Positions 12,200 to 63,340 of a DNA stretch of 64,000 nt are shown one piece after another (position 1 is the stretch's first letter; each line of letters opens with the position of its first letter). Below the pieces are notes generated by a model. That model saw only the letters and a program-made list of their open reading frames with translations. It did not search any database and was not told the DNA's origin. The DNA is taken from assembly GCA_052327205.1 (NCBI GenBank), contig CM126206.1, positions 89,776,001 to 89,840,000 on the forward strand. The letters are read 5' to 3'. Source of the DNA: Somniosus microcephalus. Its lineage: Eukaryota. The translations under genes and the position numbers were made by a program.

Positions 12200-12239
12200 T
12201 TCAAAATTTAGCCAATAAATGTTATTTAGCCAATAAAAT

Positions 12240-12548
12240 TGATATACCTATCAATTCATTCCATGAAAAGCGACGAGTTAAGATAGTAACTATAGGTTTT
12301 TATTGGCTAAATAACAGAGCCCACCCTCGTGGGCGATCGGTTCCAACAAGGGAGAATACTAGCCAAGCGGTCACCTTTATACCTGGGCAAGCAGGCGGAG
12401 CCATGGGCGGAGTCAGTTGAGGTAAGCCCAGGTATAGCAGTGTGCGTGGCAAGAGGTAACCTTGTGTATCGATAACAACAGTGTAAACAGTGATAACAAC
12501 AGTGTAACAATAGTGAACGGTTGTGAACGGTAACAGTGGTTTACCACA
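12240..12548 (-). repeat. 5' LTR of Gypsy A
   Basis: TATAAA at 12381-12376 and AATAAA near 12304-12299 (minus strand); GC boxes upstream of the TATA. Confidence 0.96.
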
Positions 12549-37005: not shown

Positions 37006-37956
37006 TCTAGGAACATGAAATCACAATACACCAGCAGCTTTGAGTCGAAGCAGGCCTGCAACAGTCTGCTGCTGCTGTAGACTTTGCAAGATTTACAGTG
37101 TGGCTCGGGTTCCACAGCACACAACAGACCAAGAGCTGATCAATTATGATGGAAAATAAAAAATGCTGAAAATGCACAGCAAACCTGTCAGCATTTGAAA
37201 GAGGCAAAAAATGGAAGGAGCATTTTGTTGAACTGGTTATAGGCAGGCATTAGAGGAAGAAAGAGAATACAAAAAGTACAGATATGCTAATTACTGTTAC
37301 AATGAGAGCTGAGAAGCTTAGTAGCTTGTAAACAAATTTTGAACTGCTGAAAGAAAGGTGAAAAGTACTTATACAATAGCAAAATACTGCGGATGCTGGA
37401 AATCTGAAACAACAACAGAAAATGCTGGAAACATATACTTAGTTGTTTGAAAATTGTGATTTGTGATTTCTGGCTGCATGATCTTCCCTGGTGGTCTGTA
37501 CAGGCAGGTGAGAAAATCTTTTTACAGTTGCCTCCTGAGGTGCTGGGGGAACACCTCACTGGATTACTTCTTTACAATTGACTGAGCCTTTCATTTTGAT
37601 TTGAAAATCCTTGGTACTGGGACTGATGTATTATTTCATGCGTTCAAATTAAATTATCTGAGGGGGAAGAGGTATCGTTTTCTTGAAAAATATACTGCTG
37701 TGGCGACACGCCACCACTGGACATAATCCGCTCACGGCGGCACGGACAGTTTAAGCAGACGCCCCCAGCCGGGGGCCCTTTCCTCCAGCAACTTGTTTCC
37801 CGCAGGGACAGGCTGCCGGGAGCGCTTCCTGTCTGGGAAGTATTTAAGTGGATGCGCGGGCTTTTCCAGTTCCTCTTTGTCATGAGGTAGAATAAAAGCA
37901 GTTGTGTTTTACTAGCTCTGGTCTCGACTCCCACGTTTGCCGCGGTATCTCAACAC

Positions 37957-37970
37957 TGGTGACCCCGACG
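37957..37970 (+). promoter_or_regulatory. Primer binding site, tRNA-Trp
   Basis: TGGTGACCCCGACG is the reverse complement of the vertebrate tRNA-Trp 3' end (CGUCGGGGUCACCA). Confidence 0.88.
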
Positions 37971-37993
37971 CTCAGGACGCATCCTAAGCTAGC

Positions 37994-40900
37994 ATGGCGG
38001 ATACAAACGCAGTCACGGTTAAATTACCGGACTTTTGGGAGAACCTGGCCGAAGCCTGGTTCGTTCAAGCTGAGTCCAGATTCCGGCTGAAACACATTAC
38101 AGTCGACGCCACAAAGTACGACTACCTCGTCTCCTCTCTCACCTATGCCACAGTCCCCAAGGTTTGGGCAGCGCTGCAGAATCCACCACCGGATGGCAAG
38201 TATGAACATCTGAAGGCTGCGCTCCTTAAAAAATTTCAAACGTCCTCTTACCAGCGCCACTGCCAACTCCTTGACCTCCCCGGCCTTGGTGACGCTTCAC
38301 CATCAGACCTGCTTTCCCACATGCTGTCCCTCTCGGACGACAAAAACCCCGGCGCCCTCTTTCGCACGCTTTTCATTCGGCAGCTCCCCGCCAGCATCCG
38401 CCCGCTCATTGTGGAGTCTGGCTCCACGGACCTGAATGACCTAGCCGAAAAGGCCGACCGGCTGCTCTCTGCACAGTCCGCTCGCGACGTCGCGCCCGAC
38501 CTCACAGCAACGACCACGCGGTCTTCCCGGCCCACTAGGCCCGGCCGCCCTACCACTCCGGGTCACTGCTACTACCACACCCGTTTTGGCGCTAGGGCCC
38601 AATGCTGCACGCCACCGTGTACTTTCAAACCCCCCCTGCACCAGCCCCCGCGATGGCCGCGGGGCAAAAGGGGCCTCGACTGTACGTCACCGACGACAGA
38701 ACCAACCGCCGATTTCTGTGCGACACAGGGGCCCAGCACAGCATCACCCCCGCCTCCGCCCTCGAAATCCAACGCGGCACACGGGGTATCACGCTGGCCG
38801 CAGCCAATGGCTCTGACATCCGCACATATGGCACCCGCATGGTCACACTCGACCTCGCGGGCCGCCGCTACCGCTGGGAGTTCCTCACAGCCAAGGTCCT
38901 CTGCCCACTCCTCGGCGCAGACTTCTTACGCGCCCACGGCCTCCTTGTCGACATTCCGAGGCACCGCCTCGTCGACATCAACACTATGGCCCCCATCCCC
39001 GGCGCATTTACCCTGGCCCGTTCGGCCGGCCTGACGACCTACTGCCTCGCCAGAGCCACGGACGACTACTTGGCACTCCTAGCCGAGTTTCCTGCCCTCA
39101 CTAACCCGACCTTTTCGGCAAAAGCCGCCAAACACGGTGTGGAGCACTATATCCCCACCACCGGCCCCCCAGTTTCTGCCCACGCCCGCAGACTCAACCC
39201 GGCCAAGCTGGAAATCGCGCGAACCGAGTTCACCACCATGGAACAACTCGGCATCATCCGCCGCTCCAGCAGCCCTTGGGCCTCGCCCCTCCACATCGCC
39301 CCCAAGCCCGGCGGAGGCTGGCGCCCTTGCGGGGACTACCGCCGCCTTAACGACGCCACCACCCCCAACCGATACCCGGTGCCACACATCCAGGACTTCT
39401 CGGCCCGACTGGCCGGACGAACCGTCTTTTCCAAAGTCGACCTGGTGCGCGGTTACCACCAAGTCCCCGTACACCCCGCGGACATCCCCAAAACGGCCGT
39501 CATCACCCCATTCGGCCTGTTCGAGTTCCTGAGGATGCCCTTCGGCCTCAAGAATGCAGCCCATGCTTTCCAGCGCCTGATGGACTCAGTCCTCAGGGAC
39601 CTAAACTTCCTATTCGTCTATCTAGACGACATTCTCGTGGCCAGCTCCTCCAAACAGGAACACCTCGAACACCTTCGCATCTTGTTTGGGCGCCTAGCCC
39701 AACACGGGCTCATCCTCAGCCCGGCGAAGTGCCAATTCGGCCTAACCGAGATCGATTTTCTCGGTCACCACATCACCCCTGCTGGGGCCGTCCCCCTGCC
39801 CAACAAGGTGCAGGCCGTCCAGCAATTCCCCCGCCCCACAACCATTAAGGGCCTCCAGGAGTTCCTCGGGATGGTGAACTTCTACAACAGGTTCATTCCC
39901 AGAGCAGCAGCCCTCATGAAGCCCCTATACGACTCCCTCCGAGGTAAATCCGGCAAGATGGACGTAGCCTGGACCACTGACACGTCAGCCGCCTTCGACG
40001 CCACCAAAAACGCGCTCGCCGACGCCACCCTGCTCACGCACCCGAGGGCCGATGCCCGGGTCGCGCTCACCACCGACGCCTCCGACCACGCGGTCGGCGC
40101 CGTGTTCGAGCAGTGGGTCAATGGCGCGTGGCAGCCACTTGCCTTCTACAGCCGCCAACTGCGCCCCCCGGAGGTCAAATACTCCACTTTAAACCGCTAG
40201 CTTCTCGCGCTCCACCTGTCGGTCCGCCATTTCAGGTTCCTCCTGGAAGGCCGCCCCTTCATCGCGTACGTGGACCACAAGCCGCTCACCTACGCGATGG
40301 CCAAGCACACCGAACCCTGGTCCGCTAGGCAGCAACGCCAGCTCGCGGCCGTGTCCGAGTTTACTACGGACATCCAGCACGTCTCCGGTAGAGACAACGT
40401 TGTCGCCGACTGCCTTTCCTGTCCCGCCATCGGCGCAAATCACCTCACGGTCGACTACGCGCAACTAGCAGCGGCCCAGCTCACGGACCCAGACCTCCCC
40501 TCGGCGGCTACCAGCCTGCCAGGGCTACGCCTAGTCAAGGTCGCGCACGGGCCCGAAGCCACGGCAGTCACTTGCGACGTCTCACTCGGCCAACCCAGGC
40601 CGGTCGTCCCTGCAACCTGGCGCCGCCGCATCTTCGACGCGCTCCACGGGCTCTCCCACCCTGGTTCCCGCGCATCCGTCAAACTCCTCTCCCAGCGTTT
40701 CATCTGGCGCGGCCTCAGCAGAGATGTTCGGACTTGGGCCACCTCCTGCCTCGCCTGCCAACGGGCTAAGGTACAGCTGCACACAAAAGCACCCCTGGGA
40801 GACTTCGAGGTACCCAGCCGCCGCTTCAACCACGTACACGTCGACATCGTCGATCCCCTGCCGCCATCGCAAGGCCAAACTTATCTCCTCACGATGGTCG

Positions 40901-41751
40901 ACCGCTACACACGCTGGCCTGAGGCAGTGCCGCTGACCTCCACCACCACAGCCGACATCGCCAGGGCGTTCGTTAACACCTGGGTTGCGAGGTTCGGCGT
41001 ACCGGCCGACATAACCTCTGACAGAGGCGCCCAGTTCACCTCCGAACTCTGGACGGCCACAGCACGCAACCTCGGGGTGACGCTCCACTGAACCACGGCG
41101 TACCACCAGCAGGCCAACGGGCTTTGTGAACGCTTCCACAGGTCACGCAAGGCCTCACTCTGCGCCGGCCTGCAGGACAGTACCTGGACTGACCGCCTAC
41201 CGTGGGTGCTACTAGGCTTACGCACCGCGGTCAAGGAAGACCTCCAGTCCTCGGCAGCGGAGTTAGTCTACGGACAACCGCTGCGCGTCCCAGGCGAATT
41301 CCTTCCGGAGGCTACCACGCCTTGGTCGGCCGAACAGCAGCGGCTCAACTCTTTCTCTTCCGCTCAGCAGTTCGTCCCACTTCCGGTCAACCGACACGGC
41401 GAACTCGCACCTCACGTCCCGCCAAATTTACAGCAGGCGCGCTTCGTCTTCGTGCGACACGACGCGCACCGCGGGCCCCTGCGACCCCCGTACGACGGAC
41501 CGTACGAGGTGCTACAAACCGGGGACAAGGTCTTCAAGCTGCGACTCGGCGACAGGGTCGACACAGTCTCCATCGACCGGCTCAAACCAGCACACACACA
41601 ACCAGGGGAACAGGTCCCCGTGGCACGGCCTCCAACTAGAGGCCGTCCCGCCAGCAAGCCAGCACAGCCGGCGGCGAACCGCCCGGCCCCACCAACTAGA
41701 CCGGTGACCACTCAGAGCCGCTGCGGCGGAACCATCAGACCACCGTCATGA
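37994..41751 (+). pseudogene. gag and pol of Gypsy C (pol in the -1 frame, two nonsense codons)
   Basis: Gag VKLPDFW..WFVQAE; PR FLCDTGA; RT YLDD; RH TTDAS; IN HVDIV..SDRG..CER. Stops at 40198-40200 and 41089-41091. Confidence 0.92.
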
Positions 41752-43078
41752 CTCGTCCACCCCTCCTAAGCGGATTCTGGGGGGAGCTCTGTGGCGACAC
41801 GCCACCACTGGACATAATCCGCTCACGGCGGCACGGACAGTTTAAGCAGACGCCCTCAGCCAGGGGCCCTTTCCTCCAGCAACTTGTTTCCCGCAGGGAC
41901 AGGCTGCCGGGAGCACTTCCTGTCTGGGAAGTATTTAAGTGGATGTGCGGGCTTTTCCAGTTCCTCTTTGTCATGAGGTAGAATAAAAGCAGTTGTGTTT
42001 TACTAGCTCTGGTCTCGACTCCCACGTTTGCTGCGGTATCTCAACACTGCATTGTTAGTGACTTGCTGCACCAGGGTGTGGAAAGATGCAGGTTATAGCA
42101 GTGTTCTTTGCTCCTCTCAGATGGGGCTTGTGGGGAGGCAGGGCAGAGGCCTGCTGTGAGGGAGGGAGGCGGTTAGAAAATGAGTCATCGAAAGCAACGC
42201 TTGCAACTTAACCAGGCTGAAGAGGCCTCCAAATCTTTCTCAGAAAAGGAATTGTATGATTTATGAGAGAGAAAAATAATTGTATAAATGGTAGAGATGA
42301 AGAAAATATTGCGCTACTTTTTTAAAAAACTTATTTTTGACTACCTCTCCTGCAAGAAGTTTCTCTTTGCTTTTTCTGGAGTACGGCTTTGATGAACCCC
42401 AGAGTCCCTTTTATAATAGCAAAATACTGCGGATGCTGGAAATCCGAAATAACATCTTTCGATTAGGCACTCTACAGCCCTCTGGACTCAACATAGAGTT
42501 CAACAATTTCAGATCATAACCTCGGCCCCTATCACATATATATATATTTTTTAAATTTTTATCCACACCTTTTGGTTGGCCTTTTTTCTTCCCTCCCACA
42601 TGGCAGCTGTCCTTCATTCTGCCAGCGCAATTATCACTTTGTAGGAATGTCTAGTTCCTATCAAGAGACTGAGGTCGACTCAGGCGATCAAACAAATGAT
42701 GTTTAATGTAAAACTAATTGAGTTTAACAAACAGATGCAAGAAAACTACGAATACAGGTCTAGTCAGTTCAGAGGCTCCACGAGGACTGCTTGGGCGGTC
42801 CCGTGGCTGGCGTCATGACGTCATCACGTTTTTCCCACCGGTGGGGGATCACGTGATGAACGGCATGATGTCATCGCGTTTGCCCACGCTCCCAAAGGGA
42901 CCGCGCTCTGTACATGCAAACAGTATATACAAAGATACAGACTCAGGCTGTAGCTAACATATTGTTAAAGGGAATTATATACATTTGATCGGAGTCCCTT
43001 AGTGGCTCTGCCACATGCGCCCCCCCAGAATTGTCTTTAACAGAAAAAGTGAAACAGCGAGGAGGCCTGACAAGCCTG

Positions 43079-46000
43079 TCAGAGCGACTTCTGTACACTT
43101 GGAGTGGAAGCTGCTGGACGGCTGGCGGGCAGCTGCGCTTGATCTGGTACGGCGACTGTGGGCGGTCGGCCACGTTTTGGCGGCTGTGCGGTCTCGACCG
43201 GGCGGTCAAGGTCCCAGTGTGCCGGTTTCAACCGGTCAACCGAAATGTGGTCCGGTTTACCTCCGATATCCACCGAGAAAGTTTTGTCTCCCGGCTCTAG
43301 CACGCGGAAAGGACCAGTGTAAGGGGCCTTGAGCGGATCCCGATGAGCGTCGTGGCGGATGAACACATATTCATCGTTCTTCAGCTCTGCTGGGACGTGG
43401 GAGCTCTGAAAGCCATGATGCGACGTTGGTACTGGTGCAAAACACCTGGCTGCCTCCTGGTGGCTGATGAGTTGATTGGATGCGGACCATGGCTCTGTTG
43501 GAGTCGGAAGGAAATCCCCTGGCACGCGTAGCGGCTGGCCATAGCCGAGCTCTGCCGAGGACGAGCGAAGATCTTCCTTGGGCGCCGTGCGAAGACCCAA
43601 CAGGACCCATGGTAGCCTGTCCACCCATCCAGTGCCTTGGAGGCTGGCCCTCAGTGCAGCTTTGAGCGACCTGTGAAACCGTTCACACAAGCCGTTCGCC
43701 TGTGGATGGTATGCTGTGGTGCGATGTAGCTTGATGCCGAGCCCCTGAGCCACTGCATTCCAGAGCTCAGAGGAAAATTGCGGTCCACGATCAGAAGAGA
43801 TGTCCGCCGGTACCCCGAAACGGGCAACCCAAGAGGAGATGAATGCCCTGGCTACGTCTGCCGAAGCGGTGGATGACAAGGGAGCTGCCTCCGGCCATCT
43901 AGTGGTGCGGTCTACCATCGTAAGGATATGTATAAACCCATGAGAAGGTGGAAGTGGCCCCACCAGGTCCACATTCACGTGATCGAACCGTCGCTCCAGA
44001 ACAGCGATGGTGGCCAATGGAGCTTTGACGTGACGCTGCACCTTGGCCTTTTGGCAGACCACGCAGGTGTTGGCCCAGTCGCGGACATCATATGCATGCC
44101 TCGCCAAACGAACTTGGACGACATCAGCCTTTGCGAGGCCTTCATGCCAGGGTGTGACAACCCGTGTATGGCGTCAAACACTTTTCGGCGCTAGGCGACC
44201 GGCACGATAGGGTGAGGATCTCCTACGGAGACGTCACAAAGTAGCGTGGTGCCTGCGGCGTGGAACTTGATGTCGGCCGCTTGGAGGCTAGAGGGGCTGG
44301 TTCGGTAAGCTTGCACTTCTGGATCCGAGGCTTGATCCGCAGCCATGAGGGCATAGTCAATGCCGAGCTGGACTGCCTGAACGGTCGCGCGGGAGAGGCA
44401 ATCCGCCACCAGGTTGTCTTTACCGGCCACGTGCTGAATATCAGTAGTGAATTCAGAGATAAACGTTAAGTGACGCTGTTGTCGGGCTGACCACGGTTCG
44501 GCAGTCTTGGCCATGGCGAACGTTAGTGGCTTATGGTCTACAAAAGCAGTGAAAGGACGTCCTTCCAGCAAGAACCGGAAATGGCGGATGGCCAGAAAAA
44601 GAGCCAGCAACTCCCAGTCGAAGGTACTGTACTTCCGCTCGTTTCACCGTAGTTGACGGCTGAAGAATGCCAGCGGTTGCCACGTCCCATTTACCCACTG
44701 TTCCTGCACTGCACCAATGGCGTAGTCGGATGCGTCGGTGGTGAGGGCGATGGTGGCACCTGGCAGCGGGTGCGCCAGCATGGTCGCGTTGGCGAGGGCA
44801 CTTTTTGTGTCAACGAACGCCCGTTCCATGTCGACCATCCAGCTTACCGGGTCCTTGCCAGACTTGCCCTTGAGGGCCTCGTACAGGGGCTGCATGAGCA
44901 GAGCTGCCTTAAGCACGAAGCGGTGGTAATCCCAAGGAACTCCTGCAGGGCCTTGATGGTCTGCGGGCGCGGAAATGATGTCACCGCCTCTACCTTTGCT
45001 TGCAAAGGCACCGCTCCCTCCGATGTAATGCGATGTCCCAGGAAATCAATGTGGGGCAGACCAAACTGACACTTGGCCGGGTTGAGAATCAGGCCATGTT
45101 GGCTGAGGCGACGAAAGAGGGTGCGTAGGTGCGTGATGTGTTCCTCCTTATTTTGACTGGCCACGAGGATGTTGTCTAAATAGACGAAAAGGAACTTGAG
45201 GTCCCGCAGCACGGAGTCCATGAGGCGCTGGAAGGCCTGGGCAGCGTTCTTCAACCCAAAAGGCATCCTCAAAAATTCAAAAAGGCCGAATGGGGTGATG
45301 ACTGCGGTCTTCTGTACGTCTTGCGGGTGTACCGGGACCTGGTGGTAGCCTCGGACCAGATCCACCTTGGAAAACATGGTGTTCCCAGTCAAATGGGCAG
45401 AGAAATCCTGAATGTGGGGGATCGGGTATCGATCAGGAGTGGTAGCGTCGTTAAGTCGCTGATACTCGCCACATGGCTGCCATCCGCCGCCAGGTTTCGG
45501 TACTATGTGGAGAGGCGAAGACCAGGGACTATTGGACCAGCGAATAATCCCCAGGCGTTCCATCGTAGCGAACTCCGCTTTCGCGACCGCCAGCTTGCCG
45601 GGTTCGAGGCGCCGGGCCCGCGCGTGGGCTGGTGGTAGTGATGTGGTGTTCCACACCATGCTTCGTGGCCGTAGAGGAGAACGTAGGTCTGGTCAGGTCC
45701 GGAAATTCACCGAGCAGGCGAGGGAACTCGTCCGGAGTTGGGAAAGCGCAGGAGACGGTGCGCGACATGGTGGTACCACGGTGGCAAGGAATGGAGTGAA
45801 ACGTGGCCACGTTGATCAGCCGCCGGTTCCTCACATCGACCAGGAGGCCGTTGGCGCACAGGAAATCCGCGCTGAGGATGGCTTGTGAAACCCTGGCTGT
45901 AACAAATTCCCAAACAAATCGCTGGCCGCCGAAGCACACCTGGACCCGCCGTTTGCCGAAGGTCTGGATAGCTCCGCCATTAGCCACTTCGAGTGAGAGG

Positions 46001-46798
46001 CCGTGCCTCCCAGCTTGAACATCAATAGCGGACGCGGGTATAATGCTGCACTGTGCGCTGGTGTCGCATAGGAATCGCCGACCAGAGATGGAATCAATGA
46101 TGAACAACAGCTTGCCATCGCAGCCGCAGGGCACCCGTCAGACCCGTTCTTCTTTTGCCGGGGTTGCAGTTTTTTTTGGGGGGGGAGAAGCTGCAGGGAG
46201 GGCGGCTACATCTGGCTTTCGCGCCAAACCGCGCGTGGTAGGAGCACAGCCCCGAAGGTTGAGGAGCTGGGGTGGCGTCTGTGGGGGATGGGTGCCTCGT
46301 GGCAGTGCAGTACTGCTGCATCATCGCGAAAATCTTGTCCGCTTCGGCAGCAAGTGCTGCGCAGTCTGAGACTTCGGACCTGGCCAGGGCAGCTTGTACT
46401 TGCTCCGGTAACTGACTGAGGAAGAGCTCCCTAAAGAGGAAGCATTCCGGTTCGGAGCCAAGGAGCGTGAGCATTTGGCTCATGAGCTCAGACGGCTTGG
46501 AGTCCCCGAGGCCGGGCAAAGCGAGCAGTCGGCGGGCGCGCTCCGACTTCGTGAGCCCGAAGACCTGTAACAACCGCACCTTGATTGTTTCATACTTACG
46601 GTCGTCCGGGGGGTTCTCAAGCAGGCTGACAATCCACGACGCGGTGGAGCTGTCGAGTGCGGAGACCACGTAAAAATATCGGGTCTGATCCGCAACGATG
46701 TTCCGTAATGCAAAGTGGGCTTCGACCTGGATGAACCAGGCGGTCGCTTGTTGCTCCCAGAATTGCGGTAGCTTCAATGCAACGGCGTTCGTTTCCAT
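43079..46798 (-). pseudogene. gag-pol of Gypsy D with multiple frameshifts and stops
   Basis: Gag from METNAVALKLPQFW (46798); PR, RT, RH and IN pieces lie in different frames (45529-46134, 44844-45659, 44644-44916, 44191-44610, 43079-44107). Confidence 0.92.
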
Positions 46799-47014
46799 GG
46801 TTCGTTCCTTCTGCGAAAACCGTTCGCAAAAGTCAGGGTCACCAATGTAGGAATATCTAGTTCCTATCAAGAGACTGAGGTCGACTCAGGCAATTAAACA
46901 AACGATGTTTAATGTAAAACTAATTGAGTTTAACAAACAGATGCAAGAAAACTACGAATACAGGTCTAGTCAGTTCGGAGGCTCCACGAGGACTGCTTGG
47001 GCGGTCCCGTGGCT

Positions 47015-47082
47015 GGCGTCATGACGTCATCACGTTTTTCCCACCGGTGGAGGATCACGTGATGAACGGCATGACGTCATCG
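47015..47082. promoter_or_regulatory. CRE (TGACGTCA x2) and E-box (CACGTG) cluster in LTR D
   Basis: Motif match only; one CRE is mutated in the other LTR copy. Confidence 0.4.
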
Positions 47083-47416
47083 CGTTTGCCCACGCTCCCA
47101 AAGGGACCGCGCTCTGTACATGCAAACAGTATATACAAAGATACAGACTCAGGCTGTAGCTAACATATTGTTAAAGGGAATTATATACATTTGATCGGAG
47201 TCCCTTAGTGGCTCCGCCACAACTTAATCTAGAGCCATCCTTTGTTCCTTAACCTATCCCATTACCACCTCCTCTTGCCTTGAATATCTCTTAATGTCTC
47301 TTAATCTCTCCTGCTTTCTATCCTATCACTGACCTTCCCTTTTGTTCTTTCATCCCCTCCCCCTTTTCTCAGCCCCTAACTTGCTTTAAAATCCATTCCT
47401 TTTCCTGCTTTTTTCT

Positions 47417-50501: not shown

Positions 50502-51002
50502 GGCCTAGAAATTCAGTTGCTTGCGCCAGCCGGTAGCGCCTTAGGAGGAGGAGATGTTGGGCGCTAGGCGGCTAGCGGCCGGGCGCAGCGCGATCTGCGC
50601 CTCTCCCCAACTTCACTCACGATTTAGCGGTGGCGCAAAGTCTTTGCGCGCGCTCAGCTGCGCGCGCAGATCCTGACGTCATTTCCTCGTGCAACGCCCT
50701 TTGTGCGCCCCAAACCGGAAATTCAGTCGCAACGCCCTATTGTGCGCCTGGCGCCCCTAGCGACTGGTAGAGGGGAATGGTTCTCAGTCGATGTGGGGGG
50801 CGCAAATTAAAGGGCACACCTCCTGCAGTAGAAAAGGCTGCCATTTCGCAGCACTCCTTTTTGAGAGACGGATCTTTGCAGAGAGACAAAGGTAGAGAGC
50901 TTTCTGCTTTGGCTCAACACTCGGACAGGTACTTGTGGCTTCAGGCCACAGCTTTCCACTTGTCTTTGCCTTCAGTGTCATATCATTGTTTGCAAACATA
51001 TA

Positions 51003-52115
51003 ATGGGGGCTGCAATGGGTGCAAACGCTGGCCTTCTTCATTGCATCCAAAGGGCTCACAGACGCCGTGAGAGAGTGGCAGTCCTGGCTAGACGGAGAGG
51101 GGGCAACAGGTGTCGGGAAAGGAGGCCTTACCCACCCAGGCTATACCGCCAGCAGTTCTCCTATCTGAACATGTCTGACGAGCAGTGTGTTCGGAGGCTG
51201 CGGTTCCGAAGGGCGGTGGTCACTGAGATCTGCAACCTGCTTGGCGGTGATCTGCAGCCACATCTGAGGAGCAGGACGTCTCTGTCGGTGGCAGTGAAGG
51301 TGACGGTGGCTCTCAACTTCTATGCCACCGGCTCCTTCCAATCCACTACTGGGGACATTTCCAACATCTCCCAGTTCGCCGTGCATTGCTGCATCCGCCA
51401 GGTGACCAATGCCCTTTTCAAAAGGAGACGTCAGTTCATCTCCTTCTCCATGGCCCTTGTCAAGCAGCAACAGCGTGCAATGGGCTTTGCAGCATTCGCG
51501 GGCTTCCCCATCGTGCAGGGCGCCATTGACTGCACGCATGTGGCTTTGCGGGCACCTCTGGAGAATGCCGAGGATTACCGCAACCGGAAGGGCTACCATT
51601 CCCTCAACGTTCAGCTGGTGTGTGACCACAGGCAGCTCATCCTAGCTGTCAATGCCCGCTTTCCAGGCAGCAGCCACGATGCCTTCATCCTGCGCCAGAC
51701 TTCTGTGGCAGACATGTTCCAGGCCCAGCCTCGCCCACGAGGATGGCTTCTCGGGGACAAAGGCTATCCTTTGTGTACCTGGCTGATGACCCCGCTCCGT
51801 GCGCCCAGCACCCCTGCTGAAGAGGGATACAACGACAGCCATCAAGCGACCAGGAACATCATTGAGCAAACAATCGGCGTCCTGAAGCAATGGTTCCGCT
51901 GTCTGGATCGTTCCCGTGGAGCCCTACAATATTCGCCGGAGCGAGTCTCCCATTTCGTGGTCATGTGCTGCATGCTGCACAACCTGGCTATCCGCAGGAC
52001 TCAGCCACTGCCACCAGAGATTGGAGGACCACCTGAGGAGGAGGAGGACCAGCACAGGAGGGAGGCAGAAAGTGCAAGGGCCGCCCGTCGGCGGCTTATT
52101 GAACGTTGGTTCTAG
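51003..52115 (+). CDS. Harbinger (HARBI1-like) DDE transposase, 370 aa, open frame
   Basis: GAIDCTHV, NRKGYHSLNVQLVCD, PGSSHD, LLGDKGY and IIEQTIGVLK..FRCL motifs; N-terminal HTH region. Confidence 0.93.
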   Translation: MGAAMGANAGLLHCIQRAHRRRERVAVLARRRGGNRCRERRPYPPRLYRQQFSYLNMSDEQCVRRLRFRRAVVTEICNLLGGDLQPHLRSRTSLSVAVKVTVALNFYATGSFQSTTGDISNISQFAVHCCIRQVTNALFKRRRQFISFSMALVKQQQRAMGFAAFAGFPIVQGAIDCTHVALRAPLENAEDYRNRKGYHSLNVQLVCDHRQLILAVNARFPGSSHDAFILRQTSVADMFQAQPRPRGWLLGDKGYPLCTWLMTPLRAPSTPAEEGYNDSHQATRNIIEQTIGVLKQWFRCLDRSRGALQYSPERVSHFVVMCCMLHNLAIRRTQPLPPEIGGPPEEEEDQHRREAESARAARRRLIERWF

Positions 52116-52316
52116 GCCCCCTCTCAGGGAATGGCTTGTGCCAATGTCACCAGATGAATGTAGCCGCTCCACAAGCCCTCAGCCGAGCAGGGCAACCAGG
52201 ACTTCCAAAAGAAAGCATGCACAGTGCGATTTAAGAACATTTATTTATTGGAAACATCTGCCCTTCCCACATTACAACCTCATGGAGAGAAGCCCCCTCC
52301 AAAAACACAAAACGAA

Positions 52317-52465
52317 CAGTCTCGGCCTTACAAAACAAAGAAAGACACCAGTCTCGGCCTTACAAAACAAAGAAAGACACCAGTCTCGGCCTTACAAAAC
52401 AAAGAAAGACACCAGTCTCGGCCTTACAAAACCACAACTACACCAGTCTCGGCCTTTCAACAAAC
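52317..52465. repeat. 32-bp tandem repeat, about 4.5 copies
   Basis: Unit CAGTCTCGGCCTTACAAAACAAAGAAAGACAC, between the convergent ORF ends. Confidence 0.92.
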
Positions 52466-52487
52466 ACAAAGCATTTGGCCAGACCTT

Positions 52488-54582
52488 CTACTTTTTGCCC
52501 TGCGAGGGCGATGCCTTTCGCATCCGTGACTGGCCCCTGCCCGCCCTGCAGCTCCTCCTCAATGGGACCCCAGTGGCTGCAGCAAGGCTGGGGGAAGGCT
52601 GCTGAGGGTCAGGTGGCGAGACGCCAGATGCCCTTCGGGGTCGGCCTGCACCAGCTCTGGCCCTGGAGGGTCCGGCTGCTGACTGCTCCAACTCTGCTTG
52701 GGCGGCAGCAGTCTGTCCAGCGGCTCGTGGCAGCTGCAATGGCGGAGTGGCAGTGTCGGCTGCAGGAATGGTGCCAACCTGACAGATCGCAGATGCTCCC
52801 TGGTCGCCTGAGACATTGGCACTCGCACGGGCCAGCACTGCAGCATGCGCAGCAAACAGCTGAAGAACAGACTGCTGGGCTGCTGCTGCGCGGCGAGTGC
52901 CCTGGCGATGCCTGGCCGATCCAGCGAGGGTGGCAGCAGTTAGTGCCCGTGTGGCCCTGGTCTGTGTCCGCATGACACCAGCCAGTGAATGAACGGCATG
53001 ACTGAGCACTTGGCTCGAAGCCGCCTGTGCTGCCGCGAAGTCCTGCAGACTCCTGGCCTGTGCTGCACTGAATTGTTCCAGACTCCTGGCCTGTGCTGCA
53101 CTGAATTGTTGCAGACTCCTGGCCTGTGCTGCTCCGAATTCCTGCACACTCCTTGACAGAGACTCAATGGAGTCAGGCATCAGTGTGCCTGCGCTCAGCC
53201 TGGACGGCCATTTCCTCCAGGAGCCGCACCTCCTCTGCGCTCACCGTCGCAGGACTGGAGGCCGCACTCACCCTCTGGGGAGAAGTCCGCCGAGCTTCCC
53301 CACCCCTCCCGCGTTGCTGCAGGCCGCTGGGCCCCAGAGCTTCACTCTCCTCCGACCCTTCCCCCCGGCTCCCCTCCAGGGAAGACGTGTCCCCTTCATC
53401 GCCATGGGCTGGCGCGGCTGAGGGTGGCACTGATGGGCCGGCTTCCTCTTCCTCCTCCTCGAATTCGGAATCGCTGACAGTGGCAGCTTGAGGGCCCGCC
53501 TCCTCACCTGGCGATTCACCATCTGAAAGCAGGGAGGCACAAGAGTTGCTTTAGAGTGAGGACAGGGCGGCAGTGAGGGAGGCATGAGTGCTGCCATGCA
53601 CTGCATTGGTCGGACAGTGGCAAAGGATGCTGATCTGAGGCGCAAGTGGAAAGAGAGAGGTCAAAAAGGTGATGCCCTTACCATTGGTGCCCAGAACAGG
53701 GTCGGCATCTCCACTGGCGACGGGGCCAATCAGCCGTCCTGCCATAATGCGCTCCACACGCTGGTCGTGGTCGGAGAGCTCTTTGATGTCAGGACGGCCT
53801 CCCCTGGTCTCACGTTGCATCCTCCGGTTGTGCGCCACCTTGGCCTGCAAGAGAAAGGACGGTCTCTAAGTACAGTGTGAAGCCCTGATCTTGTCTGCAC
53901 TGCCTCCCATGGTGGACTGGCCCTGACAGTGTGAAACCCTGATCTTGTCTGCACTGCCTCCCATGCTGGACTGGCCCTGACAGTGTGAAGCCCTGATCTT
54001 GTCTGCACTGCCTCCCATGGTGGACTGGCCCTGACAGTGTGAAGCCCTGATCTTGTCTGCACTGCCTCCCATGGTGGACTGGCCCTGACAGTGTGAAGCC
54101 CTGATCTTGTCTGCACTGCCTCCCATGGTGGACTGGCCCTGACAGTGTGAAGCCCTGATCTTGGCTGTACTGCCTCCCATGGTCGAATAGCTTGTACAGT
54201 GTGTAAAGTGCTGAATGTGCAAGTGGGTTTCATGACAGTCCCATAGCTGCTGGATGAGGGCTGGCCCTTAGGGCTTTCAGGTCCCTTTGCCCATAAACTG
54301 AGGTGCACATGCAGGGATGAGGAGGACACTGGAAAGGGTACTCACCCTGACAACCCGAGTGAGGTCGTTGAACTTTTTCCGGCATTGCACAGGAGTCCTG
54401 GCAACCACGCTGTTGGAAGTCACCCTGTTTGAGACCTCCCTCCAGGCTTTCCGGTAGGCGCTGGGCAGCGGCCTTCTGCCACCTTCTGGGAACAGAACAT
54501 GGCGCCTGCGCTCCACTCCGCCAACCAGCACCCTCAGGTCACCCTCGCTGAAGCGCTGCGCTCTCTACCTGGCCTTCTCCAT
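52488..54582 (-). pseudogene. Harbinger Myb/SANT-like (trihelix) partner gene, 3 exons: 54582-54346, 53844-53682, 53522-52488
   Basis: RAQRFSEGDL..L...V...KAWREVS....RTPVQCRKKFNDL; consensus GT-AG introns in matching phase; TAG at codon 6 (54567-54565) and a frameshift near 53180. Confidence 0.82.
53872..54205. repeat. 54-bp minisatellite, about 6 copies, in intron 1 of the Myb-like gene
   Basis: Units start at 53872, 53926, 53980, 54034, 54088 and 54142. Confidence 0.95.
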
Positions 54583-57907: not shown

Positions 57908-58620
57908 GATAGAAACATAGAATCATAGAATGATATAGCACAGGAGGAGGCCATTCTGCCCATCGTGCCTGTCGAGGCTCCTTGGTAGAGCTATCCAAAT
58001 AGTCCTACTCACCTGTTCTTTCCCCATAGCTATGTAAATTTTTTCCCTTCAAGTATTTATCCAATTCTCTTTTGAATGTTACTATTGAATCTGCTTCCAC
58101 CACCCTTTCAGGCCGTGTAGTCCAGATCACAACGCCTCGCTGTGTAAAAAAAAAAGTTTCCTCATGTCGCCTCTGGTTCTTTTGCCAATCACCGTAAATC
58201 TGTGTCATTTGGTTACCGACCCTTTTGCCACAGGAAGCTGTTTCTCCTTATTAACCCTATCAAAACTGTTCATGATTTTAAACGCCTCTATCAAATCTCC
58301 TCTTAACCTTCACTGTTCTAAGGAGAACAACTCCAGCTTCTTTAGTCTCTCCATATAACTGAAGTCCCTCATTCCTGGTATCATTCTAGTAAATCTCTTC
58401 GGCACCCTCTCTAAGGACCTGACATCCTTCCTAATGTGTGGTACCCAGAATTGAACACAATGCTCGAGCTGAGCCAGTCTTTTATAAAGGTTTAGTATAA
58501 CTTCCTTGCTTTTGTACTTATTCATCTATTAATAAAGCCAAGGATACCATATTTTTAACAGCTTTCCTGTCACCTTCAAAGATTTGTGTACATACACCCC
58601 CAGGTCCCTCTGTTCCTGCA
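57908..58620 (-). mobile_element. CR1 LINE 3' part (split by Gypsy B; continues at 63048-63340)
   Basis: QLEHCVQFW.PH.RKDV..LERV..RFTR on the minus strand; CATAGAA tail repeats. Confidence 0.9.
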
Positions 58621-58767
58621 TGATGTGCCTCAATAAATCCGAGACTTGATGTTAGCGAAACAAAACAAGGCTTTTATTGACTTAGAAGGTAACACACAGG
58701 AGAGAGGTATCTTCCATCCAGAGCTCTGCCGTACTGAATGTGCTGCAGGCTGGGCCAGCTTACATAG

Positions 58768-58851
58768 GGGCCAGGTATGGGCGGAGCCCTACACATAGTA
58801 CAATACAATGGGCCAGGTATGGGCGGAGCCCTACACATAGTACAATACAAT
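58768..58851. repeat. 42-bp tandem duplication with a GC box in the U3 of LTR B (present in both LTRs)
   Basis: GGGCCAGGTATGGGCGGAGCCCTACACATAGTACAATACAAT x2. Confidence 0.9.
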
Positions 58852-58946
58852 GGTGAGGAAACGGAACAGAGGTAAGGGAAATGAAACTGAAACCAACCAC
58901 AGTCACAGGCAGTGATGAATGGAATATTTCATCACATTCACCCCTT

Positions 58947-61900
58947 CTATAGATTTAGTCTGTTCGGGGGTTTGATAATCCTCTGCGACCGACGTGGCTG
59001 TTGTGGTGCCGCGGGTGTCGGCTGGGTGTCCCCGGTGGCCTCCTGGGTCTCTGCCGGGGGTGCTGCCAGGGTTGTTGAAGGGGTAGTTGGTGGGGGTGCC
59101 GTTGGTCGATGTTCTTCCGGGGGTGATGAAAGAGTAGTGGGTGGGTAAGAGTTGCTGTGATCGTTGTTGCTGCTATTGTCGTGGTTGTTGTCGTTACCGG
59201 CTGGGGCGACGTCTTTTATGGACACGGTGTCCTCCCTTCCGTCGGCGTGCCGGACATACGCGTATTGGGGGTTGGCGTGGAGTAGGTGCACTGGCTCCAC
59301 GAGAGGGTCCGTCTTGCGGCCCCTCACATGCCTTCGCACGAATACTGGACCTGGGGTGGAGAGCCATGACGGCATGGATATGCCTGAGGTGGATTTCCGG
59401 GGAAAGACAAACATTCGTTCATGAGGCGTGGCATTAGTGGCAGTACACAATAGCGACCGTATCGAATGGAGCACATCTGGGAGGACTTCCTGCCAGCGGG
59501 AGATAGGGAGGCCCTTGGTCCTTAGAGCTAGAGTGACTGCTTTCCATACTGTCCCGTTCTCTCGCTCCACTTGACCGTTACCCCGGGGGTTGTAGCTGGT
59601 GGTACGGCTCGTGGCGATCCCCCTGGACAGTATGTACTGGCGTAGCTCTTCACTCATGAAGGACGCCCCCCTATCCGTATGGATGTAGCTCGGCATACCG
59701 AACAGGCAGAACAGGCTGTTGAGGCATTTAATGACCGTGGCACTGGTCATGTCTGGGCAGGGGAAGGCGAATGGGAACCGGGAGTATTCGTCCACAATGT
59801 TCAGGAAGTAAACATTGCGGTCGACGGACGGGAGGGGGCCCTTGACATCTAAGCTGAGCCGCTCAAAGGGCCGTGTAGCTTTGATTAAGTGGGCTCTATC
59901 TGGGCGGTAGAACCGAGGCTTGCACTCAGCGCAAGTGCGGCAGTTCCTGGTCAGAGACCGAACTTCCTCAATCGAGTAGGGTAAGTTGCGGGACTTTATG
60001 AAGTGGAACAGCCGCGTGACCCCTGGGTGGCAGAGGTCGTTGTGGAGGGTCTGTAGCCGATCCCCGGTGGCGCTGGCACATATCCCTCGTGAGAGGGCGT
60101 CAGGGGATTCGTTAAGGGCCCCTGGCCGGTAAATGATGTCATACTCGAAGGTGGAGAGCTCGATCCGCCACCTAAGAATCTTATCATTTTTGATCTTCCC
60201 CCTCTGTTTATTATTGAACATAAACGCTACCGACCGCTGGTCGGTAAGTAGGGTGAAGCATTTGCCGGCTAGGTAGTGGAGCCAGTGGCACACTGCCTCC
60301 ACGATGGCTTGGGCCTCCTTTTCCACGGAGGAGTGTCTGATCTCGGGCCCTTGGAGGGTCCTCGAGAAGAAAGCTACGGGCCGCCCCGCCTGGTTGAGGG
60401 TGGCCGCCAAGGCAAAGTCAGACACATCACTTTCCACTTGAAATGGAGTGTTCTCGTCCACTGCCTGTAGCGTGGCCCGCTCAATATCCTGCTTAATGCT
60501 TTTGAAGGCGGCGTGGGCCTCAGCAGAGAGCGGAAAAGAGGATGCTTTCAAGAGGGGGCGGGCTTTGTCGGAGTAGTTGGGGACCCATTGGGAATAATAA
60601 GAAAATAACCCCAGGCACCTTTTCAGGGCTTTGGGAGTGTTGGGCAGGGGCAGCTCCCGTAGGGGGCGCAATCGGTCGGGGTCTGGTCCGATTTCCCCAT
60701 TCTCCACCACGCTGCCTAGTATGCAGAGGCGCGTGGTGTTGAAAACGCACTTGTCCTCGTTGTAGGTGAGGTTGAGTTTTTGTGCGGTTTTCAGGAACCT
60801 CTCGAGGTTCGAGTCGTGATCCTGCTGGTTGTGACCGCAGATGGTGACGTTGTCGAGGTAGGGGAAGGTTGCCTGCAAGTGGTGGTCATCGACCATGCGG
60901 TCCATCTCCCTCTGGAAGACCAAGACCCCATTCGTCACCCCAAAGGGGACTCTGAGGAATTGGTAGAGGCGTCCGTTCGCCTCGAAGGCGGTGTACGGGC
61001 GGTCCTCTGGTCTGATAGGGAGCTGGTGGTACGCTGACTTGAGGTCGATGGTGGAGAACACCCGGTATTGGGCGATTTGGTTCACCATTTCTGATATGCG
61101 GGGTAGCGGGTAGGCGTCTAGTTGGGTGTACCTGTTGATCGTTTGGCTATAGTCGATCACCATCCGTTTCTTCTCGCTACCCCTTACCACTGCCACTTGG
61201 GCGCGCCATGGGCTGTTGCTGCGTTCAATAATGCGCTCTTTCAGGAGCCTGTCTACCTCGGTCGCGATAAACCGCCTGTCCTCCCAGCTGTACCTCCTGC
61301 TTTTGGTCGCTATTGGCCGGCAGTTAGGGGTAAGGTTCGCGAATAGCGAAGGCGACTTTACCTTCAGGGTAGCCAGACCGCACACTGTGAGGGGCGGCTG
61401 GGACCCACCGTACTTGAGCGTGATGCTTTGGTGGTTGCACTGGAAATCTAGGCCCAAGATCACGCTCGCACATAGATTCTTCATGATTAATACTTTAAAA
61501 TTATCGTATACAGTTCCGTTAACGGACAATTGTACCGTGCAGTAACCCATGATGGTCGATGTCTGGGTTTTATCAGCCATAGAGATGGTACCCCGAGTAG
61601 GGACCACCTTTAGGGAGAGTTGTTGTGCCAGTTCAGGGTGGATAAAACTCTCCGTGCTTCCACTGTCAATTAAACATTTAACCCTGCACCCGTTTACCTC
61701 GATGTCCACCATTGATTTGGATAGCGGGTGCGGCCTGGTCTGGTCCACTGTGACCGATGCCACTGTAAGGCCCTGATCGAGACAAGATGGCGTCCACGCT
61801 GTCTGCTCATAAGATGGCGGACCCCACGAGGTCGGGCAAGATGGCGTCCAAGATGGCCGCTCCCACGGCGCACATGCGGCGGTGGCGGGTTTTCCGGCGG

Positions 61901-62705
61901 GGTTCCCTCTGCACACCTTCCCGAAGTGCCCCTTCTTACCGCACTTAAAGCAGGTGGTGCCTTTCGCCGGGCACAGGTTTCTGGTGTGCTTCGGCTGCCC
62001 GCAGAAGTAGCAGTTGGGTCCCCGACGCGTCGCGGCTGTCGTAGGGCTTCTCGGGGGAGAGCGGTGCCCCGACGGTGTCGGGCTGCCGGGCGGGGAAGAT
62101 GCCTTCCAAGATGGCGGCGCCCTTGGTGCGCACGTGGCGGCGTGGATGGTGCGGGCTGAAGAGTAGGCGTCCGAGTTTCTCTGGGCCACATCCAGGGATC
62201 GCGCTGTGTCCGCAGCCTGTTTCAGGTCCAATCCCGTTTTTTCCAGCAATCTCTGCCGGATGTAAGTGGAGCTGAGGCCTGTGATAAAGGCATCGCGAAC
62301 AAGCTCGTCAGTGTACACTGCGGCTTTTACATCTTGGCACTTGCAGTCTTTGCCAAGCGTTTTCAGGGTGCCTAGGAACTCCTCCACCGATTCCCCAGGT
62401 CGCTGTGCGCGAGTAGTGAGCAGATGCCTAGCATACACCTCGTTCGTAGGCTGCTGGTAATGCGCCTTTAAGATGTCGCAGGCGGCCGGGTACGTGTCGG
62501 CGTCTTGGATGAGGGGGTAAACCCGGTGGCTTACCCAATTCCGCAGAATTCCGAGTTTCATACTCGCAGCGTCCGTAGCGCCTTTGACGGCTGCGGAATT
62601 GTCCAGGAAGAATTCCATACACATAAACCAGTGTCCGAAGCGTGCCGATGCGTCCGAAGCATGCTGGTCCAAATCCAAACGTTCGGGTTTCAAGAGTTGA
62701 TCCAT
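58947..62705 (-). CDS. Uninterrupted Gag-PR-RT-RH-IN polyprotein of Gypsy B, 1252 aa from the first ATG after the LTR
   Basis: Zinc knuckles, LIDSGS protease, YLDN RT, RNase H, HHCC and D,D,E integrase; the stop abuts the PPT. Confidence 0.95.
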   Translation of the reverse strand: MDQLLKPERLDLDQHASDASARFGHWFMCMEFFLDNSAAVKGATDAASMKLGILRNWVSHRVYPLIQDADTYPAACDILKAHYQQPTNEVYARHLLTTRAQRPGESVEEFLGTLKTLGKDCKCQDVKAAVYTDELVRDAFITGLSSTYIRQRLLEKTGLDLKQAADTARSLDVAQRNSDAYSSARTIHAATCAPRAPPSWKASSPPGSPTPSGHRSPPRSPTTAATRRGPNCYFCGQPKHTRNLCPAKGTTCFKCGKKGHFGKVCRGNPAGKPATAACAPWERPSWTPSCPTSWGPPSYEQTAWTPSCLDQGLTVASVTVDQTRPHPLSKSMVDIEVNGCRVKCLIDSGSTESFIHPELAQQLSLKVVPTRGTISMADKTQTSTIMGYCTVQLSVNGTVYDNFKVLIMKNLCASVILGLDFQCNHQSITLKYGGSQPPLTVCGLATLKVKSPSLFANLTPNCRPIATKSRRYSWEDRRFIATEVDRLLKERIIERSNSPWRAQVAVVRGSEKKRMVIDYSQTINRYTQLDAYPLPRISEMVNQIAQYRVFSTIDLKSAYHQLPIRPEDRPYTAFEANGRLYQFLRVPFGVTNGVLVFQREMDRMVDDHHLQATFPYLDNVTICGHNQQDHDSNLERFLKTAQKLNLTYNEDKCVFNTTRLCILGSVVENGEIGPDPDRLRPLRELPLPNTPKALKRCLGLFSYYSQWVPNYSDKARPLLKASSFPLSAEAHAAFKSIKQDIERATLQAVDENTPFQVESDVSDFALAATLNQAGRPVAFFSRTLQGPEIRHSSVEKEAQAIVEAVCHWLHYLAGKCFTLLTDQRSVAFMFNNKQRGKIKNDKILRWRIELSTFEYDIIYRPGALNESPDALSRGICASATGDRLQTLHNDLCHPGVTRLFHFIKSRNLPYSIEEVRSLTRNCRTCAECKPRFYRPDRAHLIKATRPFERLSLDVKGPLPSVDRNVYFLNIVDEYSRFPFAFPCPDMTSATVIKCLNSLFCLFGMPSYIHTDRGASFMSEELRQYILSRGIATSRTTSYNPRGNGQVERENGTVWKAVTLALRTKGLPISRWQEVLPDVLHSIRSLLCTATNATPHERMFVFPRKSTSGISMPSWLSTPGPVFVRRHVRGRKTDPLVEPVHLLHANPQYAYVRHADGREDTVSIKDVAPAGNDNNHDNSSNNDHSNSYPPTTLSSPPEEHRPTAPPPTTPSTTLAAPPAETQEATGDTQPTPAAPQQPRRSQRIIKPPNRLNL

Positions 62706-63047
62706 TGTGTTGAAAATTAAGTCAATAAAATTGATGTGCCTCAATAAATCTGAGACTCGATGTTAGCGAAACAAAACAAGGCTTTTATTGACTTAGAAGG
62801 TAACACACAGGAGAGAGGTATCTTCCATCCAGAGCTCTGCCGTACTGGATGTGCTGCAGGCTGGGCCAGCTTACATAGGGGCCAGGTATGGGCGGAGCCC
62901 TACACATAGTACAATACAATGGGCCAGGTATGGGCGGAGCCCTACACATAGTACAATACAATGGTGAGGAAACGGAACAGAGGTAAGGGAAATGAAACTG
63001 AAACCAACCACAGTCACAGGCAGTGATGAATGGAATATTTCATCACA

Positions 63048-63340
63048 CTGCACCCCCCTTTAAAATTGTACCGTTTAGTTTATGTTGCCTCTCCTCATTC
63101 TTCCTACCAAAATGTATCACTTCACACTTCTCTATTGTCTCTAACAGTTTCCCCAACATCGACACTAGGCTGACTGGCATGTCGTTGCCAGGTTTAACCC
63201 TCTCCCATTTTTTAAACAGGGGTGTAACATTTGCAATCCTACAGTCCTCTGGCACAACCTCCATATCCAAGGAGGATTGGAAGATTGTGGCTACAGCCTC
63301 TGCAATTTCCACCTTTACTTCCTTCAGTAATCTAGGATGT
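63048..63340 (-). mobile_element. CR1 LINE 5' part, with an internal deletion of the RT core
   Basis: [29 protein letters not shown] joined directly to EKCEVIHFGRKN. Confidence 0.85.

What the first reader, a model, noticed from the sequence alone, without database searches (positions are those of the whole stretch)
62718..62795. Gypsy B shows the same leader/poly(A)-signal duplex with two compensatory base-pair changes
Seen: LTR end ...CATCA, one A, then TTTTATTGACTTA (62730-62718), complementary to TAAGTCAATAAAA in the LTR (62795-62783); 13 bp with a 52-nt spacer. Compared with A, the LTR arm is TTAGCCAATAAAA vs TAAGTCAATAAAA and the leader arm TTTTATTGGCTAA vs TTTTATTGACTTA. Both differences are matched on the opposite arm, while the two LTRs otherwise share only short motifs. 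Inference: the pairing, not the sequence, is conserved, which supports a clade-wide mechanism.
Basis: partly seen in the sequence, partly recalled or inferred. Interest (0 to 1): 0.8.

Follow-up and report, generated by a model that had tools for sequence, protein, structure and literature searches.

The report
Self-priming Gypsy with long capped primer
This jumping gene and 21 related families have no tRNA landing site; the 13 bases there pair with their own terminal repeat, so they likely start copying themselves with a cut-off front piece of their own RNA, which faulty copies in the genome suggest is about 54 bases long.

Summary
Confirmed and extended. The 13-bp match sits one base after the LTR-terminal CA, where the tRNA-primed neighbours C and D have their primer site; no leader of 152 copies starts with TGG. 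In 22 of 23 families the pairing holds, with at least 47 two-sided changes on the tree, no G·U in family-typical copies and a sharp end at 13 bp. So it is a primer-binding site, likely self-primed as in Tf1; masking the poly(A) signal is at most a second job. New evidence: 212 of 4,108 family-A junctions are faulty copies whose leader runs on as an inverted copy of the LTR upstream of the arm. Many carry target-site duplications, so they arose in reverse transcription. Their lengths pile up at 48-56 nt, about 30 nt below the TATA box, pointing to a primer running from cap to arm (about 54 nt), unlike Tf1's 11 nt. Against: a second family shows no such wall, 14 of 121 faulty copies run through the polypurine tract, no run-ons were found for B's own type (0 of 100), and no RNA data exist. 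The scan noted this self-priming clade before on other genomes; my look-ups found no note on the run-on evidence.

The parts
62732..63047 (-). Element B 5' LTR (TG...CA, 316 bp)
62783..62795 (-). LTR arm, overlapping AATAAA; inferred 3' end of the self-primer, predicted cut between 62783 and 62782 (before GCC)
   Evidence: GCC or ACC follows the arm in 25 of 27 arm types; the cut itself is inferred
62731..62782 (-). 52-nt loop: rest of R, U5 and the single spacer A; inferred first template of minus-strand DNA
62718..62730 (-). Leader arm = primer-binding site, starting one base after the LTR end
58947..62705 (-). Single gag-PR-RT-RNaseH-IN reading frame, RT motif YLDN, no chromodomain found
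58937..58948 (-). Polypurine tract
58621..58936 (-). Element B 3' LTR; arm copy at 58672-58684, no leader arm behind it
63048..63052 (.). Target-site duplication CTGCA (other copy 58616-58620)
12240..12548 (-). Element A 5' LTR; TATAAA at 12376-12381, arm at 12298-12310, inferred transcription start near 12347-12353
   Evidence: start inferred from run-on wall
12206..12238 (-). Element A leader: 19-nt run-on copy of the LTR arm and upstream bases (12220-12238), then a restart of the normal primer site; one of the faulty copies

Best explanation
The 13-base leader arm is the primer-binding site of this Gypsy group, and the primer is likely the element's own capped 5' RNA piece, cut free at the end of the LTR arm. 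Steps: (1) shown in sequence: the arm in R pairs with the leader one base past the LTR end, with the arm's 3' end facing U5; (2) inferred: RT's RNase H, as in Tf1, cuts after ...AAA(A), before GCC/ACC, and the new 3' OH primes minus-strand DNA; (3) inferred from faulty copies: the primer runs from the cap to the cut, about 54 nt in family A, of which only 13 pair; (4) inferred: plus-strand synthesis normally copies about 13 nt of this primer, a length near the polymerase-to-RNase H spacing of Ty3-type RT, which rewrites the primer site from the LTR arm and so keeps the arms strictly Watson-Crick; when it overruns, it leaves the inverted run-ons; (5) plausible, untested second job: the same duplex hides the 5' copy of the poly(A) signal.
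For: Register: best duplex starts at +1 in 64 of 70 copies whose LTR end was fixed by the 3' LTR and a TSD, and is 13 bp in 54 of 70; shuffled leaders give mean 5.7, at least 11 in 1 of 1,400; C and D give 5 and 4. TGG in 0 of 152 leaders; C and D carry TGGTGACCC after the same one-base spacer. Family-typical copies: Watson-Crick in 19-22 of 22 families at pairs 1-13, 11 of 22 at pair 14; G·U 0 of 286 cells inside, 22 of 154 outside. Tree of 28 rows: 48 changes on each side, 49 of the pair state, so at least 47 joint; flank control 69/70/111. Faulty copies: 212 of 4,108 family-A junctions, reversed-pattern controls 0. Of 80 measurable run-ons at 79 distinct sites, 67 stop at or before 56 nt and 23 at 48-56 nt (6 expected; after collapsing shared junctions 17 vs 6, P 1.6e-4), and stop rate then falls about tenfold; TATAAA lies 84 nt above the arm end, so 53-54 nt is where a Pol II start is expected (TATA spacing from general knowledge). 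14 of 26 with a second end nearby have an exact 5-bp TSD. Ty3 RT cuts 11-12 nt from the polymerase site (PMC11363490, passages) and Ty3 plus-strand DNA copies 12 nt of its primer (PMC5371799, section 2.2).
Against: No RNA evidence: no RNA run listed, so start site, cut and poly(A) site are unobserved. 13 of 80 family-A run-ons pass 56 nt. 5 of 91 family-A and 9 of 30 family-F21 faulty copies run through U3 and the polypurine tract, some into pol, so their template was a 3'-type or read-through RNA. F21 shows no wall (15 measurable). No run-on of 16 nt or more in 100 unselected junctions of B's type and F21, so the primer length is not shown for B. The 48-56 window was chosen after seeing the data. 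Any plus-strand end carrying the primer site could switch onto an intact RNA 5' end and give the same wall. In Ty1/Ty3 the primer sequence is not inherited, so step 4 is not general.
Confidence: 0.66

Rival explanations
1. Self-priming, but by the 3' copy of R: the arm near the RNA's 3' end pairs with the primer site 4 kb away (or on the co-packaged RNA), the poly(A) tail is cut off, and the whole genomic RNA is the primer.
For: 14 of 121 faulty copies continue through U3, the polypurine tract and in some cases hundreds of bases of pol; TSD-flanked LTR/inverted-LTR mini-elements L256, L272, L289. It would give a longer first-transfer overlap, helpful where the spacer is only 23 nt.
Against: 67 of 80 family-A run-ons stop at or before the predicted start site, with a wall there, which a 3' primer would not produce by default. 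The 5' arm is only 23-79 nt from the site and pairs with mean predicted probability 0.95 in local folds. Tandem units sharing a middle LTR exist (4 of 4 looked at) and could supply long 5' pieces by read-through.
Confidence: 0.17
2. The duplex only masks the poly(A) signal in the 5' LTR, as the HIV-1 polyA hairpin does; priming uses something else.
For: AATAAA or ATTAAA lies in the arm in 23 of 27 arm types, swapping between the two common signals; only the 5' LTR has the leader partner; precedent in HIV-1 (PMC2645353, abstract).
Against: 4 of 27 types lack the hexamer yet keep the duplex; 2 keep an extra unpaired AATAAA. Masking needs neither a fixed +1 register, nor a 13-bp limit, nor zero G·U, and leaves no other primer site.
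Confidence: 0.07
3. The match is a by-product: DNA fold-back or template switching during reverse transcription keeps copying the LTR arm into the leader, and a tRNA fragment or other host RNA primes nearby.
For: Any inverted repeat allows such switches; simple inversions between the arms occur (L261) and the run-ons show that copying happens.
Against: The leader differs between families at 10 of 13 positions, so no one host RNA fits; a by-product would not keep the same register and length across families only 41-64% identical in protein. I did not compare leaders with the host's tRNA set.
Confidence: 0.06

Closest known systems
Tf1/Tf2 (S. pombe), Tj1 (S. japonicus) and the Tf1/sushi group of Ty3/gypsy chromoviruses
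   Same: No tRNA site; primer site pairs with the element's own R sequence so that a cut gives a primer facing U5 (PMC7175516, PMC4600332; passages).
   Different: [quoted passage not shown] Here the paired stretch is 13 nt, overlaps the poly(A) hexamer and, in family A, appears to lie about 40 nt inside the RNA, giving a primer of about 54 nt. No chromodomain was found; 4.4 kb, one frame.
Plant Tcn1 (gypsy) and TAR/Houba/Osr-1 (copia) lineages
   Same: Self-priming predicted from at least 10 bp of LTR complementarity starting 0-5 bp after the 5' LTR (PMC6317226, passages); B meets that rule.
   Different: Plant hosts, other lineages; no poly(A)-signal overlap or primer length given in the passages seen.
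Conserved Hairpin Site of fungal GalEa copia elements
   Same: No tRNA site; a conserved pairing at the primer-site position (PMC5445492, passages).
   Different: There both arms lie downstream of the LTR and are conserved in sequence; here one arm is in the LTR and the letters vary.
HIV-1 polyA hairpin
   Same: AAUAAA held in a helix at the 5' LTR (PMC2645353, abstract).
   Different: HIV's hairpin is present at both RNA ends and HIV is tRNA-primed; here the partner is the primer site and exists only at the 5' end.
Ty3
   Same: Closest solved RT (E 6.5e-39); 12 nt of primer copied on the plus strand.
   Different: tRNA-primed, and its primer sequence is not inherited.

Membership tests
Ty3/gypsy LTR retrotransposon | Two LTRs, TSD, PPT, gag then PR-RT-RNaseH-IN order | tested here: met
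tRNA-primed LTR element | Primer site complementary to a tRNA 3' end (TGG) just after the 5' LTR | tested here: not met
   0 of 152 leaders; C and D in the window do have it
tRNA-primed LTR element | Complementarity to an internal tRNA stretch (half-tRNA priming) | not tested
   No host tRNA set fetched; leader letters vary with the LTR arm at 10 of 13 positions
Tf1-type self-priming (works like) | Primer site perfectly complementary to own 5' LTR, starting 0-5 bp after it | tested here: met
Tf1-type self-priming (works like) | Paired stretch is the very 5' end of the RNA | tested here: not met
   Indirect, family A only: run-ons extend to about 54 nt and TATAAA lies 84-86 nt above the arm end in 4 arm types
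Tf1-type self-priming (works like) | RNase H cut of the RNA duplex makes the primer | not testable with these tools
   needs biochemistry
Tf1/sushi chromovirus (membership) | Chromodomain at the end of integrase | tested here: not met
   No Pfam hit in the last 217 residues at E 0.1
Tf1/sushi chromovirus (membership) | RT groups with Tf1/sushi | not testable with these tools
   No named Tf1 or sushi sequence was available; the 28 duplex-bearing rows form one side of a branch (SH-aLRT 100, quick tree) against C, D and two other host Gypsy elements
Mag lineage or a MolGy/PolGy clade | RT grouping with named references | not testable with these tools
   No sequences in the supplements that could be read; the double zinc knuckle resembles Mag from recall only; Culex Mag elements use tRNA Leu/Ser/Arg (PMC3286476, passages)
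Poly(A)-signal masking hairpin | Every 5' poly(A) hexamer lies inside the helix | tested here: inconclusive
   23 of 27 arm types hold one; 4 do not; 4 have a hexamer downstream of the arm

The most novel reading that the evidence does not exclude
A widespread, very active animal Gypsy clade primes reverse transcription with a capped piece of about 54 nt of its own RNA, cut exactly at the end of its poly(A) signal. One 13-bp helix serves as primer site and as mask for the 5' poly(A) signal, and each cycle rewrites one arm from the other, so compensatory changes arise by copying. Faulty integrated copies map the transcription start and primer end from genome sequence alone.
Probability: 0.5. 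Interest if true: 0.8.

Novelty: new variant of a known kind. Interest (0 to 1): 0.66.

Why it matters
Self-priming has been shown experimentally in Tf1 and predicted in a few lineages. This extends it to a non-chromovirus animal clade with thousands of young copies per genome (8,133 and 4,108 exact junctions), which would be out of reach of host control through tRNA supply or tRNA fragments (inference). The internal, poly(A)-signal-overlapping primer would be a different geometry from Tf1's and names an exact cut to test. It is also a caution for RNA covariation work: perfect compensation can come from templated copying. Reading primer ends from faulty proviral copies is a cheap method usable on other elements without a tRNA site.

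Tried and rejected
No RNA holder listed for the stretch; contigs of four runs showed no start, end or strand-changing joint; neither bears on expression. The tool for contigs of named proteins was closed, so the LTRs of the named nematode, sea-anemone, damselfly and ray relatives were not seen. No relatives among viral contigs. No tRNA gene in the window and no Rfam family above gathering score in B. My first pattern search was meant to count inverted junctions but equals the reverse complement of the normal junction; I used it as an unselected sample instead. The idea that an arm joined to the inverted LTR end (L130, L147) proves the cut position was rejected: any switch inside the arm gives the same letters. 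The idea that transcription starts at the arm (an initiator-like TWAGT) was dropped for family A because pairs 12-13 covary and run-ons reach 54 nt. Single-window folding z-scores are weak for B (-1.9) and strong only for the aberrant A (-4.9), so they were not used as evidence. The careful tree did not finish; the quick one is cited. Clade naming failed. Four primary Tf1 papers were not held. Five of 152 copies failed the 13-pair test (one truncated contig, one rearranged copy, one disrupted LTR, two degraded or mis-anchored).

Full report
OBSERVATION. The window lies in a 6.4-Gb genome, probably of a cartilaginous fish, since the nearest named proteins are from rays and catsharks at 72-79% identity (inference). 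It holds four LTR elements. B is nearly intact: 316-bp LTRs with 3 mismatches, a 5-bp TSD, a polypurine tract and one gag-pol frame of Ty3/gypsy order. The 13-bp match, the 52-nt spacer and the two matched differences from A are as described. The arm occurred in 0 of 200,000 shuffled LTRs.

WHERE THE LEADER ARM SITS. C and D have one spacer base and then TGGTGACCC, a tRNA site; A and B have one spacer base and then the arm. [quoted passage not shown]

ACROSS THE GROUP. I fetched 88 loci from metagenome and genome contigs by a protein alignment and host loci by eight protein queries and one junction pattern. Of 220 sequences, 161 had a gag start; in 152 an LTR end could be called, 70 by 3' LTR plus TSD and 82 by a short motif that presupposes the first leader letters. 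38 of the 70 were picked by protein only; the other 32 came from the pattern, which fixes seven leader bases but nothing in the LTR arm. The best duplex starts at +1 in 64 of 70 and is 13 bp in 54 of 70; shuffled leaders average 5.7; C and D give 5 and 4; no leader of 152 has TGG. All 13 pairs are Watson-Crick in 127 of 152 copies, 12 in 19, 11 in 1; 5 fail. The copies form 23 families at 80% gag identity, 14 from unnamed contigs and 9 from the host; one is a truncated contig. In the commonest copy of the other 22, pairs 1-13 are Watson-Crick in 19-22 families each and pair 14 in 11; G·U is 0 of 286 inside and 22 of 154 at positions 14-20. On an RT tree of 28 natural copies, chosen as fully paired where the family had such a copy (which favours the result), each arm needs 48 changes and the pair state 49, so at least 47 are joint; flanking positions give 69, 70 and 111. 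The 21 unpaired cells among 147 copies are scattered over 20 copies, 3 of them G·U. Contigs of four public runs carry both halves of one compensatory change (62723, 62790), a variant also common in the host. The hosts of the metagenome loci are unknown, so the cross-phylum reach of the duplex is inferred from protein relatives named from nematodes, a sea anemone and a damselfly, whose LTRs I could not see.

POLY(A) SIGNAL. AATAAA or ATTAAA lies in the arm in 23 of 27 arm types; 4 lack it, 2 of those having one downstream; 2 more have a second, unpaired AATAAA. The overlap is probably real and useful, since only the 5' LTR has the partner, but it does not explain the fixed register, fixed length or lack of G·U.

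FAULTY COPIES. The window's A leader continues for 19 nt as the reverse complement of the LTR arm and upstream bases, then restarts. An exact 24-nt pattern for this junction occurs 212 times against 4,108 for the shared 18-nt junction, 5.2%, with reversed controls at 0; the matching pattern in family F21 occurs 31 times. I examined 97 of the 212. In 80 a sense LTR lies upstream, at 79 distinct sites; 17 were inverted or rearranged and not measured. Run-on lengths: 44 stop at 19-47 nt, 23 at 48-56, 8 at 57-152 and 5 reach the LTR start. The stop rate is 0.026, 0.100, then below 0.009 per base; after collapsing 7 copies with shared junctions, 17 stops against 6 expected, P 1.6e-4, with the window chosen after seeing the data. 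TATAAA lies 84 nt above the arm end, so the wall is 28-36 nt below it, where a Pol II start is expected (general knowledge). The 48-56 stretch is mostly unpaired in a fold of window A. Of 26 copies with a second end within 330 nt, 14 have an exact TSD: these were made before integration. The simplest reading is that the plus strand, after copying U5 and the spacer A, ran on into an attached RNA that ended at the cap: the primer.

AGAINST. 5 of 91 family-A and 9 of 30 F21 faulty copies go on through the polypurine tract, up to more than 1 kb into pol; F21's 15 measurable run-ons show no wall. These need a 3'-type template: a switch to the 3' R of the second RNA, read-through from tandem units that share an LTR (4 of 4 examined), or a 3' primer. 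A plus-strand end could also switch onto an intact RNA 5' end and give the wall without a 5' primer. For B's own type and F21, 0 of 100 unselected junctions had a run-on of 16 nt or more. No RNA data were available.

MECHANISM. Most likely (0.66): the nascent RNA folds the 13-bp helix; RNase H cuts after the A-run, before GCC/ACC (25 of 27 types); the capped 5' piece primes; the short minus-strand DNA transfers to the 3' R below the arm; the plus strand copies about 13 nt of primer, near the 11-12 nt polymerase-to-RNase H spacing measured for Ty3 RT (PMC11363490, passages) and the 12 nt that Ty3 copies (PMC5371799, section 2.2), and so can rewrite the primer site. The cut, the enzyme and the rewriting are inferred; in Ty1 and Ty3 the primer is not inherited. 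Self-priming from either end together: about 0.83.

KNOWN SYSTEMS. It works like Tf1, whose first 11 bases pair with the primer site and are cut off by RNase H (PMC7175516, PMC4600332, passages), and meets the rule used to predict self-priming in plant Tcn1 and TAR elements (PMC6317226, passages). Passages of PMC12471100, PMC3601003, PMC6934838, PMC13524379, PMC3286476 and PMC5443660 gave no such case. Searches found no description of this arrangement; Repbase reports and most subscription journals were not searched, and four primary Tf1 papers were not held.

EARLIER NOTES. After forming this reading I found five notes of the scan on what appears to be this clade in other genomes and similar notes on BEL and copia elements, one mentioning a single aberrant 43-base copy. 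They are unchecked and not counted as support; none shown mentions run-on lengths or primer size.

VERDICT. Real, clade-wide, a new variant of a known kind. Interest 0.66.

Noticed in passing
L375-L378 (G000): Head-to-tail tandem elements sharing one middle LTR (PPT before it, primer site after it) in 4 of 4 pairs picked for their spacing; several such pairs appear in the hit lists.
   Followed up: partly
L228, L230, L231, L234, L281, L293, L295, L296, L316, L319, L321, L336: Mini-insertions of about 350-400 bp: one LTR, primer site, short run-on, then a second LTR end, with exact TSD. They would be mistaken for solo LTRs but are direct products of reverse transcription.
   Followed up: partly
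window 37698-42049 (+) and 42640-47221 (-): Elements C and D: tRNA-primed Gypsy elements with DUF7041 gag, broken frames; D's RT motif reads YLDN in this copy.
   Followed up: partly
window 62778-62782 and 62736-62745; other families: The GCC/ACC just past the arm is predicted to be paired in most families, with GCCT/AGGC in B against ACCT/AGGT in A: a possible second helix at the cut, not tested against controls.
   Followed up: partly
window 50865-53240: Harbinger-like DNA transposon: DDE_Tnp_4 frame facing a second frame with a 33-bp repeat; a related stretch lies near 6400-7100.
   Followed up: no
window 53818-54249: Tandem array of 54-bp units, 93-99% alike in the core.
   Followed up: no
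window 62880-62965: B's LTR holds a 42-bp tandem duplication in U3; LTR length varies widely among copies of the type (258-358 bp).
   Followed up: no
L081-L088: Animal-type Gypsy elements, some with both LTRs, inside assemblies labelled as bacterial genomes: likely host contamination of those bins.
   Followed up: no
L122: A divergent host family (about 39% identity) with the duplex but a leader of about 100 nt before gag.
   Followed up: partly
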